From: a virus
Direction: 5' to 3' (one strand)
Virus record (IMG/VR): IMGVR_UViG_3300032087_005679
Span: 10,196 to 74,195 of that record
DNA length: 64,000 nt
The notes below the pieces were generated by a model, which saw nothing but the letters and a program-made list of their open reading frames with translations, did not search any database and had not been told where the DNA came from. The number at the start of each line of letters is the position of its first letter. Position 1 is the first letter of the stretch. Made by a program: the position numbers and the translations under genes. Of the stretch, positions 58,982-63,840 are shown one piece after another.

Positions 58982-59455
58982 ATGATAAGAGTATTAACTA
59001 ATCGGTGGGTGCTCTTAAGTGTTCTGTCCGCAACAATCCTAGCATCCTCGTTCTTGATTTATAAGAACAACTTTCAGCCACAAGTAATCCTATCAAAAGA
59101 TGTAACCTACTATTTGCCGGGACAAAGAGATAACTGCAAGTGGATCTTACAAGTAAAAGATGACCTAAGAGATATACCAGGCGAAACAACAGAAGTTCGT
59201 ATAGGCATCCCAGAGGTTCAAACTGATGGCTATCTTAGTGGACGCCTGGAGGTTGGCGAACATGGCAACCTTATGTTAGCATTTATCCCACCAGGAACTC
59301 AGAAAAATAAAGTCCCAGTTATCCTGACAGCAGATTACTCTGATCGAAAGTTACCAATTGACTTCCTGAGGTTCAGATGGGTTCAGAGCAGTACAATTAC
59401 TATTTTGATTTTCTCCGATGAAGGTGCCTGTATGGCTTCTAGGAATGGGAAATGA
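58982..59455 (+). CDS. Membrane-anchored/exported hypothetical protein
   Basis: AGGAG SD; N-terminal TM segment; ATGA overlap with the next gene. Confidence 0.7.
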   Translation: MIRVLTNRWVLLSVLSATILASSFLIYKNNFQPQVILSKDVTYYLPGQRDNCKWILQVKDDLRDIPGETTEVRIGIPEVQTDGYLSGRLEVGEHGNLMLAFIPPGTQKNKVPVILTADYSDRKLPIDFLRFRWVQSSTITILIFSDEGACMASRNGK

Positions 59456-60696
59456 AAAAGCGTGTTGTTGGTCTTTTTTTAGTTGCCCTGCTTTTTGGCT
59501 GCGAAGAAGATAGACTGGTAAAGCTAGAATGCGTTATTGGCGATAAACTTGTCTGTAATGAGTTTGGACAGAACTTCCCAGCCGTTGATCCAGCCGACAT
59601 CCCAGAGAGAACAGGTCAATGTTCTTATGGAACAAGAACCTGTACAATAAATGGCTGGGGAGAATGTGAGGGAGCAAAAGGACCAGAAGCAGAAGTTTGT
59701 GATGGGATTGATAACGATTGTGATATGACAATCGACGAAACCTACCCAGAAGAACATCAACTTTGCGGGTTCCAAGAAAATATAGATTACGGAGTTGGCA
59801 TCTGTAAACCAGGTGTTATGACCTGTTACAACGGCGTTCTATATTGTGACGGACATACAGGACCTGCTGATGAGATCTGTGATGGTGTTGATAACAACTG
59901 TAATGGAACGGTTGATGAAGGTATCGCTAATGCTACAGCGGTTGCTTGCTATGAAGGACCTGAAGGAACTCTAGCGGTTGGTGAGTGTCGAGCAGGCATT
60001 CGCTATTGTACTGACGGCAACTTTGGCGGACCTTGTGATGGTCAGGTTTTACCAACCGATGAAAGATGTGATGACCTTGATAATGATTGCGACGGAGAAG
60101 TCGATGAGGGCTTTGATACTCGTGGTGTAGATTTGGTTTTTGTTATCGATATATCTGGTTCCTTCGATGACGAGATAGAGTCAATGATTTTAGGCATAAC
60201 TCCGCTTTTAGACGACCCGATAACGAGCAGATTTCGTTTTGGACTAGTTGTTGTGGGTGCTAGGCAGGGTGACGACATAAGACCGCATAATCTATACTCT
60301 AGAATGGTCTCTGATTTTGTTCCCGCTGATGAGTTCGTGGCGATATTGGAAGCCGGCAGAATGATTGATAGTGCTGGGCAAGAGCCAACCATTGATACGA
60401 TGTATTGGGCTATGAACAGATACCCATTTTCGTGGAGACCAGAAGCACAAAAAGTTGTTATAACAATGACTGATGAGATAGCCCAGACAATCACATCAAT
60501 GACCTGTTTAGAAGTAGCAACCCATGCTGACAACTATGGATATGAGTTATTTGTATTTGCCCTACAAGAGCATCATAGGAGTTTCTTGGATTGTGTTGGC
60601 GGGGATAGAGATAGGCTCTATAGTCCTACTGCTAACTCTGAGACAGTGTTTTATCAGATCAGGGCAATCTTTGAAGACCTTTGTGTAGGTCGTTAA
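59452..60696 (+). CDS. Lipoprotein with three Cys-rich MopE-type repeats and a C-terminal vWA domain
   Basis: Lipobox LFGC; repeats EVCDGIDNDCD, EICDGVDNNCNG, ERCDDLDNDCDG; MIDAS DISGS; ITMTDE. Confidence 0.88.
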   Translation: MKKRVVGLFLVALLFGCEEDRLVKLECVIGDKLVCNEFGQNFPAVDPADIPERTGQCSYGTRTCTINGWGECEGAKGPEAEVCDGIDNDCDMTIDETYPEEHQLCGFQENIDYGVGICKPGVMTCYNGVLYCDGHTGPADEICDGVDNNCNGTVDEGIANATAVACYEGPEGTLAVGECRAGIRYCTDGNFGGPCDGQVLPTDERCDDLDNDCDGEVDEGFDTRGVDLVFVIDISGSFDDEIESMILGITPLLDDPITSRFRFGLVVVGARQGDDIRPHNLYSRMVSDFVPADEFVAILEAGRMIDSAGQEPTIDTMYWAMNRYPFSWRPEAQKVVITMTDEIAQTITSMTCLEVATHADNYGYELFVFALQEHHRSFLDCVGGDRDRLYSPTANSETVFYQIRAIFEDLCVGR

Positions 60697-61117
60697 TTAT
60701 ATTGCTTCCACTCACCGGTTCTCATATCGAGTTGACCGCCTTTACTTCCAAGTTTGCCTAAAGTCACCGACCCGTCATCATCTACTTTGCCGAGCGTGAC
60801 TTCCTTGGCTTTTTTTTAGGGGCTGGTTCCTCCTCATTGGATTCTTCCTCTACTTCTTCTTCTGCCTCTGCAATATCAATTTGTTCAATAAGTGAGGAGT
60901 GATCTTCTATTTCTTGAATGCATTTTCTAATTGAACTTACTAGGCTATCAAGTTCTTCTAGAATCTCAATAGAATTACCTGACGCCAATACTGATCCAAG
61001 TTTTGCAGTTTCATTCTGGTATTCTGCTGATAGCCTGTTTAGAGAAAGGTTAATGACATTATTAATCAAGACTCTTACATCTTTTTTGTTGACATCTAGA
61101 GAAAGTTTATGTTTCAT
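60693..61117 (-). CDS. Acidic helical protein (111 aa, stop 60782) with a probable -1 frameshift extension to 141 aa (stop 60693)
   Basis: A_AAA_AAG slippery site at 60809-60815, upstream GGAGG, downstream hairpin and an open -1 frame. Confidence 0.65.
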
Positions 61118-61702
61118 TTATATTATCCCCTTATTTTTGAGTATTATTTGTAGCAACTTATCTTTTTCTTCATCCGTTGTTGCCTGCGACCAAGCCCAAG
61201 CAACAGAACCTTTCTTTGTAATTATTTCGTCAGAAATCGTTTTTATATTATTTTCAAACAAAGCCAAAGTTTCTGGATGCAAAGAAGTTAGTTCGATATT
61301 GAAAGATGCAGCTATTTCTAGCAATGTTGCTATATCTTGATTTTCGTAGGCTTCTGATGCTTTTAGGAAAACATCTGCTTGGCTATCATCACCTACTTTA
61401 TCAGGATGTGTTTTTTCAACTATCTTTCTGTATAATTTTCTTGTGTCCCCGTTTTTTGGAATTGCAGGCTCTATTTCTTGCTCTTCTGAGACCTCTTCTA
61501 TTGGAGCAGTTTCTTTAGGAGGTGTTTGATTTACCGCTTTTGGCGGCACACCAAAAAAAGAATCATAATGTTCTGGATACTTTGTTTTTAAGAATTCTTT
61601 TATACCTTTTTCTGAGTCGGAACAAACTTCTTCGACTTCTTCTTTTTCTAATTTCAGATAAGAAAATTGAAGTGATAACTTTTTGAGTTTTATTTTAGAC
61701 AT
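61118..61702 (-). CDS. J-domain (DnaJ-like) protein
   Basis: RKLYRKIVEKTHPDK...FLKASEAYE. Confidence 0.8.
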   Translation of the reverse strand: MSKIKLKKLSLQFSYLKLEKEEVEEVCSDSEKGIKEFLKTKYPEHYDSFFGVPPKAVNQTPPKETAPIEEVSEEQEIEPAIPKNGDTRKLYRKIVEKTHPDKVGDDSQADVFLKASEAYENQDIATLLEIAASFNIELTSLHPETLALFENNIKTISDEIITKKGSVAWAWSQATTDEEKDKLLQIILKNKGII

Positions 61703-61720: not shown

Positions 61721-61752
61721 AAAAAAGAACGGGGAGCCGAAGCCCCCCGTTC
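61721..61752 (-). terminator. Rho-independent terminator
   Basis: GAACGGGGGGC-TTCG-GCTCCCCGTTC followed by TTTTTT. Confidence 0.9.
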
Positions 61753-61788: not shown

Positions 61789-62670
61789 TTATGGTACAAG
61801 TACTACCTTCAAAAGACCATCTTCGACCATGAGCTTGTAGTATACACCTGCGTTGTCTTGGTCCAACAACTGGAGTGGTGCATCATACTTGTGAATGCCT
61901 TCCCAAGTTGGGTTGAAGGCATTTGACTGATCAATCTTAGCCTCGGTGGATTCGATTGCAAGTCCGCCGTTTGCCTTAAGGTCAAGCGAGAACTCACCAG
62001 AAGAAACGTCAAGACCATCACCAGCAGTAATGTGAGCCTGTACTTCAGAGGCAGATGGACCTGTGTAGGTGATGACACCTGTGCTGCTGTTGTAAGCCAA
62101 GCTTCCATCGCCACCAGAGTCGGTGACAGAGACAAGACCTCTGACTTCAGCGTCGGTTCTTTCTGTGAAGCTCATGACACCTGTGCTAGAGTTGTAAGAA
62201 AGATCACCACCAGCAGAGACAGCACCACGGATAGAAGATGTCAAGTTACTAACGTTAACTGTGAATTCACCAGAAGAAAGTTCCAAAATGTAGGCATCTT
62301 CAGTGATGTGCTGTTGGACGCCAGCAGCGTTGTTATCAAGAGCATAACCAACAGATGCAGAGAAAGCGCTGGCTTCAACTTCGATTGTACCAGCGCCATC
62401 GTGAGTCAAGAATTCATCAACAGTAATGTTCTCAACACCACCTGCTGAAATTGCACCACCAAGTGCGTTTAGAGCAGAAATGACAGAAACACGAGAAGAC
62501 TCAGCCGAGAAAGCCCCCAAGTCGGTGTTGAGTTTTTTACCAGCTAGAACATCTGCATCATTTTGCGCAGCACCGGCAAGAGCAGAAGATGAGAGAGCAG
62601 AGTCTCCATCGACCTGAATAGCACCAATAACCTCAACGGGTACTATAACTGAACCTGACAAAATAGACAT
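61789..62670 (-). CDS. Fibre/decoration-type virion protein with GxLxYNSSTGV repeats (293 aa)
   Basis: Repeats GDLSYNSSTGVMSFT and GSLAYNSSTGVITYT; AGDGL motif; GGAGG SD; own terminator. Confidence 0.75.
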   Translation of the reverse strand: MSILSGSVIVPVEVIGAIQVDGDSALSSSALAGAAQNDADVLAGKKLNTDLGAFSAESSRVSVISALNALGGAISAGGVENITVDEFLTHDGAGTIEVEASAFSASVGYALDNNAAGVQQHITEDAYILELSSGEFTVNVSNLTSSIRGAVSAGGDLSYNSSTGVMSFTERTDAEVRGLVSVTDSGGDGSLAYNSSTGVITYTGPSASEVQAHITAGDGLDVSSGEFSLDLKANGGLAIESTEAKIDQSNAFNPTWEGIHKYDAPLQLLDQDNAGVYYKLMVEDGLLKVVLVP

Positions 62671-62900: not shown

Positions 62901-62988
62901 TGGAGGAAGAGGTGGGATTCGAACCCACGGTAGATTTCTCTACAAGGCATTTCTAGTGCCTCACCATCGACCACTCGGACACTCTTCC
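62901..62988 (-). tRNA. tRNA-Ser(AGA), long variable arm, encoded CCA
   Basis: Acceptor GGAAGAG/CTCTTCC; anticodon arm AGGCA-CTAGAAA-TGCCT; variable arm GTAGA-GAAA-TCTAC; T-arm GTGGG-TTCGAAT-CCCAC. Confidence 0.9.
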
Positions 62989-63038
62989 AATGCTAGAATT
63001 GCACTTCTATATTTAGTTTTACGGAAAATAAAAAAGAA

Positions 63039-63119
63039 GAAAGAATAACCTCGTGAGGGATCGCACCTCATAGCCTGCTCGCTTGGTGGCTAGAACACTA
63101 GATCCGAGGAGATCTTTCT
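63039..63119 (-). ncRNA. tRNA-like structured RNA or tRNA pseudogene
   Basis: Closing stems AGAAAGA/TCTTTCT and CCTCG/CGAGG, hairpin TAGCC/GGCTA, T-arm TGAGG-TGCGATC-CCTCA; no CCA and no canonical anticodon loop. Confidence 0.5.
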
Positions 63120-63129
63120 GTAATCTTTG

Positions 63130-63534
63130 TTATCTGATCCTTTTTGACTTTCTGTTGCCTGTGTTTCTAAAAGTAGGGGTAAGTGAATGACAATTAGGAC
63201 ACAACATTCTTAAGTTCTCTTCTTTATTGTTCGAAGCATCCCCATCTATGTGGTCAATTTCTATAGGAACCCTATTGGTATAAGGATTAATCTCATTCCA
63301 TCCACATGATTCACAACTATTGTTACTTCTTTCACGAAGATAGTTCATTATATGTTTTGAAACTAATAATGTTTTCTTGCTTCTTATTCCATCATGTAGT
63401 CCTTTTTTCCACTCTGAGATATACTTTTTTCTCTGAAAGATTGTTTGGCATTTATGATCGCAATAGGTATTAGCATTTACAATTGGTTTGTTACAATTTT
63501 TACAGCTTTTTTCTTTTCTTTCTCTTTTCCTCAT
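63130..63534 (-). CDS. HNH endonuclease (homing-type)
   Basis: CKNC, CESC, IEIDHIDGDASNN...NLRMLCPNCH; AGGAGG SD. Confidence 0.92.
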   Translation of the reverse strand: MRKRERKEKSCKNCNKPIVNANTYCDHKCQTIFQRKKYISEWKKGLHDGIRSKKTLLVSKHIMNYLRERSNNSCESCGWNEINPYTNRVPIEIDHIDGDASNNKEENLRMLCPNCHSLTPTFRNTGNRKSKRIR

Positions 63535-63606
63535 TTTGGTTTACCTCCTATACATATATATAGCCACTCTACCAAAAAAAGCAGTTTATAAACCTGCTTA
63601 GGTTTT

Positions 63607-63680
63607 TGGAGGTGAGTCCCGGACTCGAACCGGGAAGAAGGCATTACAAATGCCACATGATACCATTTCATCAACCCACC
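63607..63680 (-). tRNA. tRNA with TGT anticodon (nominal Thr), atypical body
   Basis: GGTGGGT/ACTCACC-T-CCA; TGGCA-TTTGTAA-TGCCT; 4-nt variable loop; CCCGG-TTCGAGT-CCGGG. Confidence 0.8.
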
Positions 63681-63683
63681 TAA

Positions 63684-63760
63684 TGGCACTCCCGGCAGGA
63701 TTCGAACCTGCGACCTAATGCTTAGAAGGCATTTGCTCTTTCCGGCTGAGCTACGGAAGC
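63684..63760 (-). tRNA. tRNA-Arg(TCT)
   Basis: AATGC-CTTCTAA-GCATT anticodon arm; canonical D and T arms; G-CCA end. Confidence 0.95.
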
Positions 63761-63763
63761 TTA

Positions 63764-63840
63764 TGGTAGTCCACCGAGGGATCGAACCTCGAACCTACTG
63801 ATTATGAGTCAGTTGCTCTAACCGATTGAGCTAGTGGACC
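63764..63840 (-). tRNA. tRNA(CAT), probably Ile2 (lysidine) rather than Met
   Basis: ACTGA-CTCATAA-TCAGT; acceptor GGTCCAC/GTGGACT has C4-G69 and C5-G68 (TilS determinants) and A73; lacks initiator features. Confidence 0.85.

What the first reader, a model, noticed from the sequence alone, without database searches (positions are those of the whole stretch)
60693..60835. Complete dnaX/IS-type programmed -1 frameshift signal in a gene coupled to a J-domain protein
Seen (minus strand): GGAGG, then 13 nt, then in-frame A_AAA_AAG (60815-60809), then 6 nt, then a hairpin AAGTCAC-GCTCG...CGGGT-CG-GTGACTT. Frame 0 stops 8 codons later (111 aa). The -1 frame stays open for 38 aa (AKEVTLGKVDDDGSVTLGKLGSKGGQLDMRTGEWKQYN, with VTLGK twice) and ends overlapping the stop of the convergent gene, exactly filling the apparent gap. 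Known: A_AAA_AAG with a 5' SD about 9-14 nt away and a 3' stem-loop is the classic bacterial -1 signal. Phage tail chaperones use G/GT frameshifts, but normally next to the tape measure gene. Inference: 111- and 141-aa isoforms at a fixed ratio, in an unusual context, perhaps a DnaK-linked assembly chaperone pair.
Basis: partly seen in the sequence, partly recalled or inferred. Interest (0 to 1): 0.75.

Follow-up and report, generated by a model that had tools for sequence, protein, structure and literature searches.

The report
Conserved frameshift beside phage J-protein gene
A small gene next to a chaperone-helper (J-domain) gene in an uncultured marine jumbo phage almost certainly makes two proteins, of 111 and 141 residues, by shifting back one base on a run of A's; a distant relative keeps the slippery run and the hidden tail, so the recoding is real, but its mechanism is of a known kind.

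Summary
On the minus strand a 111-aa ORF (61117-60782) carries an in-frame A_AAA_AAG (60815-60809) inside an A8 run. GGAGG lies 13 nt upstream and a stem-loop 5-6 nt downstream. Frame 0 stops 8 codons later. The -1 frame stays open for 38 codons, to a stop that overlaps the stop of the convergent vWA-lipoprotein gene.

A8 is not an assembly error. Contigs from four independent studies bridge the run without indels, and two 85-86% relatives (L001, L002) also have A8G.

The -1 frame is coding. In the part read only in that frame, 11 of 14 variable sites fall on third codon positions. A distant relative (L004, N-domain 38% identical) keeps the in-frame heptamer (A9G), an early frame-0 stop and a collinear -1 peptide 54% identical to the window's, which is more conserved than the N-domain. 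No start codon is conserved in the -1 frame.

The SD and the hairpin are not conserved in L004, and the hairpin is no more stable than shuffled sequence.

Best reading: programmed -1 ribosomal frameshifting. Transcriptional slippage is the main rival. The long isoform adds a predicted small beta module to a three-helix bundle. The function is unknown and the link to the J-protein rests on synteny alone. This is a new gene family using a known recoding mechanism. The scan had not noted this family before.

The parts
61118..61702 (-). Gene for a 194-aa J-domain-like protein (HPD motif). Its stop TAA is directly followed by the ATG of the frameshifted gene.
   Evidence: Pfam DnaJ E 4.2e-5, 24.0 bits, below the 27.8 cut-off. 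The L004 orthologue scores 27.3 bits. The profile matches the yeast Ydj1 J-domain in PDB at E 3.6e-4 across the HPD region.
60782..61117 (-). Frame-0 ORF of 111 aa: a three-helix bundle (residues 11-95) followed by a disordered acidic linker and a K-run/basic tail.
   Evidence: Five close homologues of 111-115 aa. 26 family representatives of 90-111 aa. AF2 model with pLDDT 86.
60829..60833 (-). SD-like GGAGG 13 nt 5' of the heptamer, within Glu codons GAG GAG GAA.
   Evidence: Conserved in L001 and L002 but absent at this spacing in L004. Phage genes here do use SD-type sites: 14 of 42 ORFs against a 4% background.
60809..60815 (-). Slippery heptamer A_AAA_AAG, in phase with frame 0 and inside the A8 run 60817-60810. 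The -1 frame has a TAA immediately 5' of the run.
   Evidence: Identical and in phase in L001, L002 and L004, where the run is A9G. No indel in 5 bridging contigs from 4 studies.
60760..60803 (-). Stem-loop 5-6 nt 3' of the heptamer: 13 pairs with an internal bulge and a 16-nt loop.
   Evidence: -14.6 kcal/mol, z -1.5, not better than 11 of 200 shuffles. Retained in L001. Re-registered after a G-to-C change in L002. In L004 there is only a 5-bp stem at the same 6-nt spacing, -5.9 kcal/mol.
60693..60809 (-). -1 frame extension: 38 sense codons (60809-60696, P0001) plus TAA (60695-60693). No conserved start codon. Predicted to form four short beta strands.
   Evidence: Codon-position pattern of substitutions. 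54% identity and 85% positives to the L004 -1 peptide, E 2e-16. All five other frames are closed in at least one lineage. AF2 pLDDT 70.
59452..60696 (+). Convergent gene for a 414-aa Cys-rich vWA lipoprotein. Its stop overlaps the stop of the -1 extension. It is context, not part of the signal.
   Evidence: Pfam Cu-binding_MopE and VWA. The same tail-to-tail arrangement occurs in L004.

Best explanation
The gene is decoded in two frames. Most ribosomes read frame 0 and release a 111-aa protein: a three-helix bundle with an acidic linker and a short basic tail.

A fraction of ribosomes slip back one base, with P- and A-site lysine tRNAs on A_AAA_AAG. They continue for 38 codons in the -1 frame. 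This gives a 141-aa isoform in which the 8-residue basic tail is replaced by a conserved small all-beta module.

In the window's clade the slip is probably boosted by an internal Shine-Dalgarno-like GGAGG 13 nt upstream and a stem-loop 5-6 nt downstream, as in E. coli dnaX.

Shown here: the sequence anatomy, that the A8 run is genuine, and that the heptamer, the early frame-0 stop and the -1 peptide are conserved under protein-level selection with no start codon of their own.

Inferred: that the shift happens on the ribosome and not in the polymerase, its efficiency, the role of the stimulators, and any function. My guess for function is that the two isoforms act with the translationally coupled J-domain co-chaperone, and that the beta module adds or changes a binding partner.
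For: (1) The anatomy was verified.

(2) A8 is real. Contigs of four runs from four studies bridge the run with zero indels. L001 and L002, which are independent metagenomes, have A8G. All five close protein homologues carry the frame-0 tail after KKK.

(3) The -1 frame is coding. Among the window, L001 and L002, the part read only in the -1 frame has 14 variable sites: 11 at third, 3 at first and 0 at second codon positions of that frame (binomial 7e-4).

(4) Deep conservation. L004 comes from a 127-kb viral record and its N-domain is 38% identical. It has the same four-gene synteny, GCA AAA AAA AAG in phase, a frame-0 stop 6 codons later, and a collinear -1 peptide with 21 of 39 residues identical and 85% positives (E 2e-16). 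Over the 36 aligned extension codons, 10 of the 19 identical residues use different codons, and nucleotide differences fall 15/4/19 by codon position.

(5) There is no conserved start in the -1 frame. The ATG of L004 corresponds to GTA in the window clade, and the GTG of the window is CTG in L002. Residues upstream of those codons are conserved as well.

(6) The shift must occur within 31 nt that contain the run, in both the window and L002, because a -1-frame TAA precedes the run.

(7) The phase of the heptamer is the same although the run length differs (A8 against A9), which matters for ribosomal but not for transcriptional slippage.

(8) Phage genes use SD-type ribosome binding sites, so an internal GGAGG can plausibly pair with the anti-SD.
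Against: No direct expression data exist: no transframe peptide, no reporter and no RNA run.

The stimulators are weakly supported. The hairpin is not more stable than shuffles (z -1.5). The GGAGG sits in Glu codons. Neither is conserved in L004.

Only two deep lineages could be examined at DNA level. The phase agreement between them has a 1-in-3 chance expectation.

A8-A9 runs can also cause RNA-polymerase slippage, which would give the same protein.

In L004 an ATG in the -1 frame overlaps the frame-0 stop (ATGA), so coupled re-initiation of a 30-aa peptide is possible in that lineage.

Host tRNA-Lys content is unknown, and no tRNA-Lys is encoded in the window.
Confidence: 0.68

Rival explanations
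1. Transcriptional slippage. The host or phage RNA polymerase stutters on the A8/A9 template run and adds one A to a share of transcripts. Standard translation of those mRNAs gives the same 141-aa protein.
For: The run is a pure homopolymer of 8 (window, L001, L002) or 9 (L004) A's. From established knowledge, A/T runs of about 9 or more are used this way in Thermus dnaX and some IS elements. The SD and the hairpin are not conserved in L004, as expected if they are not needed.
Against: A8 is below the length at which bacterial slippage is usually efficient. The run ends in G in the third codon position, giving A_AAA_AAG in phase in both deep lineages despite different run lengths. Transcriptional slippage does not require that. 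The window clade has an SD-like element and a stem at the canonical dnaX spacings. The two mechanisms are not exclusive.
Confidence: 0.17
2. The downstream frame is a separate small gene, translated from its own start or by termination-reinitiation at the frame-0 stop. It yields a free peptide of about 24-30 aa and not a fusion.
For: In L004 an ATG in the -1 frame overlaps the frame-0 TGA (ATGA). Gene callers list a 30-aa ORF for it (P0032). The window and L001 have a GTG at codon 15 of the extension.
Against: No start is conserved. The codon aligned to the L004 ATG is GTA in the window clade. The GTG is CTG in L002. The window's ATG at codon 29 is TTA in L001 and L002. The ATGs after the window's TAG are in frame 0 and stop after 5 codons. 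Residues before these candidate starts are conserved between lineages (E.T.G and DGS) with synonymous differences.
Confidence: 0.07
3. Homopolymer error, decaying gene or DNA-level phase variation. The true or ancestral gene is one 141-aa ORF with A9, and A8 is an assembly artefact, a recent frameshift mutation or one state of a switching tract.
For: Homopolymers are error-prone in sequencing and prone to replication slippage. A single extra A would fuse the frames.
Against: Five contigs from four studies show no indel at the run. L001 and L002 have A8G. L004 has A9G but with the flanks in the equivalent split phase. All close homologues carry the frame-0 tail. None of the 26 family representatives is a fused form of about 140 aa. 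No protein over 70 aa carrying the peptide was found among 5.8 billion (weak evidence). A pseudogene would not keep the codon-position pattern seen.
Confidence: 0.04
4. Chance: the 38-codon open frame is untranslated 3' sequence between two convergent genes, and the heptamer is merely three lysine codons.
For: A8G is not over-represented (2 observed, 4.5 expected). The hairpin is not significant. K-runs follow naturally after the acidic linker in this family.
Against: The third-position substitution bias, 54% peptide identity at 38% N-domain identity and the frame being the only open one of six in both lineages are not expected of non-coding DNA.
Confidence: 0.02

Closest known systems
E. coli dnaX tau/gamma programmed -1 frameshift (A_AAA_AAG, upstream SD, downstream stem-loop)
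   Same: Identical heptamer in phase. The window clade has an SD-like GGAGG 13 nt upstream (within the 10-14 nt range known to stimulate -1 shifts) and a stem starting 5-6 nt downstream. Two isoforms share one N-terminus.
   Different: In dnaX the shifted frame stops at once, so the frameshift product (gamma) is the shorter isoform. Here the shifted frame adds a conserved 38-residue module. The proteins are unrelated. The stimulators are weak and not conserved in the distant relative.
IS3-family OrfA/OrfAB (IS911, IS150) -1 frameshift
   Same: A_AAA_AAG-type heptamer, and a start-less downstream frame entered only by the shift.
   Different: There is no transposase, no inverted repeats and no large downstream ORF. 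The extension is 38 aa in a phage gene of unknown function.
Phage lambda gpG/gpGT-type tail assembly chaperone frameshift (conserved in long-tailed phages)
   Same: A conserved -1 shift near the 3' end of a small phage gene, giving a short abundant form and a longer minor form. The gene lies near a tail-fibre-like gene.
   Different: It is not between the major tail and tape-measure genes. It has no PHROG or Pfam match to tail chaperones. The extension is far shorter than a T domain. The heptamer is the lysine type. The neighbours are a J-domain gene and a convergent vWA lipoprotein gene.
C-terminal extension frameshifts of phage structural genes (T7 10A/10B; Lactobacillus phage A2 major head protein, cited in PMC10885494)
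   Same: A -1 shift close to the stop adds a short C-terminal extension to a fraction of the copies.
   Different: Those are capsid proteins. This is a 3-helix-bundle protein with no structural-protein match.
Phage-encoded J-domain proteins (RB43 Rki, PMC3486835; DnaJ/DnaK homologues in large aquatic phages, PMC12619734)
   Same: The upstream, translationally coupled gene has an HPD J-domain, as in phage co-chaperones that engage host DnaK.
   Different: No recoded partner gene is described for Rki, and PMC12619734 contains no occurrence of 'frameshift'. The J-domain here is divergent (below the Pfam cut-off) and sits in the middle of a 194-aa protein with unknown flanking regions.

Membership tests
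dnaX/IS-type programmed -1 ribosomal frameshift site | X_XXY_YYZ slippery heptamer in phase with the upstream frame | tested here: met
   A_AAA_AAG at 60815-60809 in phase. The same is seen in L001, L002 and L004.
dnaX/IS-type programmed -1 ribosomal frameshift site | A -1 ORF that overlaps the site, lacks its own start and is under protein-coding selection | tested here: met
   38 codons. No conserved start. 11 of 14 variable sites fall at third codon positions. 54% identity to the L004 peptide.
dnaX/IS-type programmed -1 ribosomal frameshift site | Conservation of the site and of both frames across homologues | tested here: met
   Two deep lineages plus close variants. DNA of the other 24 family representatives could not be fetched.
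dnaX/IS-type programmed -1 ribosomal frameshift site | Upstream SD-like stimulator 10-14 nt from the heptamer | tested here: inconclusive
   GGAGG at 13 nt in the window, L001 and L002. It lies in Glu codons of a shallow clade. L004 has only AAGG, 4 nt upstream.
dnaX/IS-type programmed -1 ribosomal frameshift site | Downstream stem-loop or pseudoknot 5-8 nt from the heptamer | tested here: inconclusive
   A stem is present at 5-6 nt, -14.6 kcal/mol, z -1.5. L004 has a 5-bp stem at 6 nt, -5.9 kcal/mol, z -0.6. There are too few sequences to test covariation.
dnaX/IS-type programmed -1 ribosomal frameshift site | Transframe protein demonstrated | not testable with these tools
   No RNA run is listed among the holders and no proteomics is available.
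Lambda G/GT-type tail assembly chaperone | Position between the major tail protein and tape measure genes | tested here: not met
   The neighbours are a fibre-like gene, a J-domain gene and a convergent vWA lipoprotein gene, in both the window and L004/L005.
Lambda G/GT-type tail assembly chaperone | Sequence or profile similarity to known tail chaperone families | tested here: not met
   No PHROG or Pfam family reaches E 0.01. Fold searches give only generic helical matches.
Transcriptional-slippage recoding site | Homopolymer A/T run of about 9 or more, effective regardless of codon phase | tested here: inconclusive
   A8 in the window clade and A9 in L004. The phase is conserved, which slippage does not need. 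There are no RNA data.
J-domain (DnaJ/Hsp40) protein (the upstream gene) | J-domain helices II-III with an HPD tripeptide | tested here: met
   THPDK is invariant in 4 orthologues. Pfam DnaJ gives 24.0 and 27.3 bits, just under the 27.8 cut-off. PDB profile hit to the Ydj1 J-domain at E 3.6e-4.

The most novel reading that the evidence does not exclude
The frameshift sets the stoichiometry of a previously unknown two-isoform adaptor that works with a phage J-domain co-chaperone. The 111-aa helical form and the 141-aa form bearing a beta module would together direct host DnaK to a phage substrate, such as the adjacent tail-fibre-like protein or the exported vWA lipoprotein set. That would make this the first recoding-controlled Hsp70 co-chaperone system in a virus of bacteria. 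The lysine-run endings seen in 15 of 26 family representatives would then mark the same hidden extension across a wide group of marine phages.
Probability: 0.12. Interest if true: 0.7.

Novelty: new member of a known kind. Interest (0 to 1): 0.5.

Why it matters
It adds a well-supported, unannotated case of programmed recoding outside the tail-chaperone, capsid, IS and dnaX classes, in uncultured marine jumbo phages. In every relative seen in the protein searches the gene is called as the short 90-115-aa frame-0 form, so the most conserved part of the protein, the 38-residue beta module, goes unannotated. The gene is translationally coupled to a phage J-domain protein. The pair therefore offers a tractable entry to what phage-encoded Hsp70 co-chaperones do. 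The site is also a natural dnaX-like signal for comparative study, because its stimulators differ between lineages. The mechanism itself is textbook, so the surprise for a recoding specialist is moderate.

Tried and rejected
DNA for P0002-P0005 and for the 24 distant representatives could therefore not be fetched.
- Scans that found nothing new:
  - Viral-contig scans with the window protein, A1 and A4.
  - Two degenerate DNA patterns for the -1 peptide in viral contigs, which found only the L004 record.
  - Genome-contig scans with P0017 and with the peptide pattern.
  - tblastn and blastn against cultured phages, which gave no relative.
- Alignments A2 and A5 were too diverse for the search for related loci.
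- The search for in-frame fused forms carrying the -1 peptide (lengths 'longer') found none. The tool itself rates this as weak evidence.
- I considered that the in-frame tails of P0028-P0030 and P0020 are homologous to the -1 peptide. Local alignments were no better than shuffles, so I rejected the idea.
- Structure searches:
  - Foldseek of the N-domain model against PDB and BFVD gave only generic helical-hairpin matches with E above 0.01.
  - VIA-align of the 40-aa beta model gave only generic four-strand meander or propeller-blade matches with Z under 5.
- ESM Atlas gave unnamed viral clusters only.
- Complex prediction of the J-protein with the 111-aa protein gave no verdict (score 0.00). 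That is no evidence either way.
- No RNA holder is listed among the sequencing runs, so expression and transcript A-run length could not be examined. Only assembled contigs were laid, not raw reads.
- Literature searches found no description of this gene family or of a frameshift next to a phage J-domain gene.
- I did not attempt a fold of the full 141-aa transframe protein. It cannot be given by reference without a four-letter-word code, which the tools mostly turn away.
Full report
**Where this is.** The window is bases 10196-74195 of a 74-kb IMG/VR virus record that CheckV rates 22% complete. It is therefore a fragment of a jumbo-sized phage. Contigs from seawater, marine, estuary and freshwater metagenomes of eight studies hold the stretch. 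No cultured phage is related to it.

**The observation.**
- A 111-aa ORF (61117-60782) ends ...PAPKKKPRKSRSAK.
- Its three lysine codons are AAA AAA AAG within an A8 run (60817-60810, G at 60809). This gives A_AAA_AAG in phase at 60815-60809.
- GGAGG (60833-60829) lies 13 nt upstream.
- A stem-loop (60803-60760; the AAGUCAC/GUGACUU stem plus an inner helix) starts 5-6 nt downstream.
- Frame 0 stops 8 codons after the site.
- The -1 frame runs 38 codons (P0001) to a TAA at 60695-60693, which overlaps the TAA of the convergent gene 59452-60696(+).
- The -1 frame has a TAA directly 5' of the run. In the window and L002 the shift therefore has to happen within a 31-nt interval that contains the run.

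The upstream gene (61702-61118) has an HPD J-domain: Pfam DnaJ at 24 bits, just under the cut-off, and a PDB profile hit to the Ydj1 J-domain. Its stop abuts the ATG of the 111-aa gene.

**Chance.** The single elements are unremarkable. A8G occurs twice in the window against 4.5 expected. The hairpin (-14.6 kcal/mol) has a z-score of -1.5. A stop-free 38-codon stretch is rare, though: only 1% of such windows are open in the -1 frame of this phage's long ORFs. The case rests on comparison with relatives.

**Not an assembly error.** I laid Logan contigs of four runs from four studies on 60650-61150. Five contigs bridge the run with no inserted or deleted letter, although two of them differ from the window at 8-38 other positions. 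Two independent metagenome loci, L001 (86%) and L002 (85%), have A8G in the same place. All five close protein homologues end with KKK followed by the frame-0 tail.

**The -1 frame is coding.** The window, L001 and L002 are collinear. In the 29 codons read only in the -1 frame there are 14 variable sites. Eleven are at third positions of that frame, three at first positions and none at second (binomial 7e-4). The three first-position changes are conservative (V/L, D/N, M/L). The extra variants seen in the Logan contigs follow the same pattern.

**Deep conservation.** A profile search of 1.84 billion representatives found 26 family members, all 90-111 aa and none fused. Fifteen of them have a run of two or more lysines within their last ten residues.

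One member, P0009, could be located on DNA: L004, in a 127-kb viral record rated 59% complete. Its N-domain is only 38% identical to the window's. The four-gene arrangement is the same: fibre-like gene, J-domain gene with an overlapping GTGA junction, the small gene, and the convergent vWA lipoprotein gene. The protease and small exported-protein genes beyond are also shared.

L004 reads GCA AAA AAA AAG, an A9G run with the heptamer in phase. Frame 0 stops six codons later. The -1 frame encodes a 36-residue peptide collinear with the window's: 21 of 39 residues identical and 85% positives, E 2e-16. It again ends on the stop of the convergent gene.

The hidden tail is thus better conserved than the annotated domain. 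Over the 36 aligned extension codons, ten of the 19 identical residues use different codons. Nucleotide differences fall 15/4/19 by codon position. Every other frame is closed in at least one lineage.

**No independent start.**
- L004 has an ATG in the -1 frame overlapping the frame-0 TGA, and gene callers list a 30-aa ORF for it (P0032). The aligned codon in the window clade is GTA.
- The window's GTG at codon 15 is CTG in L002.
- The window's ATG at codon 29 is TTA in both relatives.
- Residues 5' of these codons are conserved between the lineages.

Entry from frame 0 at the run is the only route common to all four sequences.

**Mechanism.** I favour ribosomal -1 tandem slippage (0.68), for three reasons.
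- The heptamer is the classic one and keeps its phase although the run length differs between lineages.
- The window clade has SD-like and stem elements at the spacings known from dnaX.
- The phage's genes do use SD-type sites: 14 of 42 long ORFs against a 4% background.

The stimulators are, however, not demonstrably selected. L004 has no SD at 10-14 nt and only a 5-bp stem at 6 nt. Transcriptional slippage on A8/A9 (0.17) would give the same protein and cannot be excluded without RNA data, and no RNA run is listed among the holders. Separate initiation, sequencing error or phase variation, and chance are each unlikely, for the reasons given under the rival explanations.

**What the proteins look like.** With the 30-sequence family alignment, AlphaFold2 models residues 11-95 as a three-helix bundle (pLDDT 86) followed by a disordered acidic and basic tail. 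The 40-residue -1 peptide, folded with four sequences, is modelled as four short beta strands (pLDDT 70). Neither model matches anything specific in PDB or BFVD. Pfam, PHROGs and the ESM Atlas are silent. The peptide occurs once per viral record.

The frameshift therefore swaps an 8-residue basic tail for a conserved small beta module on a flexible linker. The function is unknown. Conserved adjacency and coupling to the J-domain gene make a joint role plausible. A complex prediction gave no verdict, and I make no binding claim.

**Comparison with what is known.** The signal works like E. coli dnaX or IS3-family sites. The outcome, a minor longer isoform with a short C-terminal addition, resembles T7 10A/10B or the phage A2 head protein (cited in PMC10885494). 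It is not a lambda G/GT tail chaperone: the position and the homology tests both fail.

Phage J-domain proteins are known (RB43 Rki, PMC3486835), and DnaJ/DnaK homologues have been noted in large aquatic phages (PMC12619734). My searches found no recoded partner gene described. Earlier notes of this scan list many other phage frameshifts but none on this family.

**Verdict.** This is a new gene family using a known recoding mechanism. The evidence that the recoding is real is strong, the evidence for the particular stimulators is moderate, and there is none yet for function. Interest 0.5.

Noticed in passing
window 60652-60697: In two runs (X8, X16) several contigs match only the last ~45 nt of the vWA lipoprotein gene and then run on into unrelated sequence exactly at 60697. 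Related phages therefore seem to have a different neighbour where this phage has the frameshifted gene. The breakpoint is at the shared gene ends.
   Followed up: no
window 61727-61752 (-): A strong intrinsic terminator (11-bp G+C stem, T6) follows the fibre-like gene only about 22 nt before the ATG of the J-domain gene. There is no room for a sigma-70 promoter between them. The J-X pair is either expressed by read-through or from a promoter upstream of, or overlapping, the terminator.
   Followed up: partly
window 61789-62670 (-) and L004 1341-3323: The fibre-like protein is 293 aa here but 660 aa in the distant relative. The shared parts are an N-terminal stretch and the C-terminal ~40 residues. 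The L004 protein matches PHROG tail-fibre families and carries a long run of near-identical repeats.
   Followed up: partly
family representatives P0020, P0028-P0030 (no DNA held): A distant branch of the family ends in a different, in-frame conserved tail (T-[KE]-V-[VL]-E-[DN]-L-P-D-L ... G-[VI]-D) and not in a lysine run. The tail is not significantly similar to the -1 peptide. The family may attach alternative C-terminal modules by different means.
   Followed up: partly
L004 4318-4324: In the distant relative the frame-0 stop overlaps an ATG of the -1 frame (ATGA). That lineage could additionally make a free 30-aa peptide by coupled re-initiation. Public gene calls list this ORF (P0032, 6 contigs).
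   Followed up: partly
window 62901-63840 (-): There is a cluster of phage tRNA genes: Ser(AGA), Thr(UGU), Arg(UCU) and Met(CAU), with an HNH endonuclease gene (63130-63534) between them. No tRNA-Lys that could tune the lysine slippery site is present.
   Followed up: no
window-wide: SD-like 5-mers precede 14 of 42 long ORFs against a 4% background. This suggests a host that uses Shine-Dalgarno initiation, so not a typical Bacteroidota host.
   Followed up: partly
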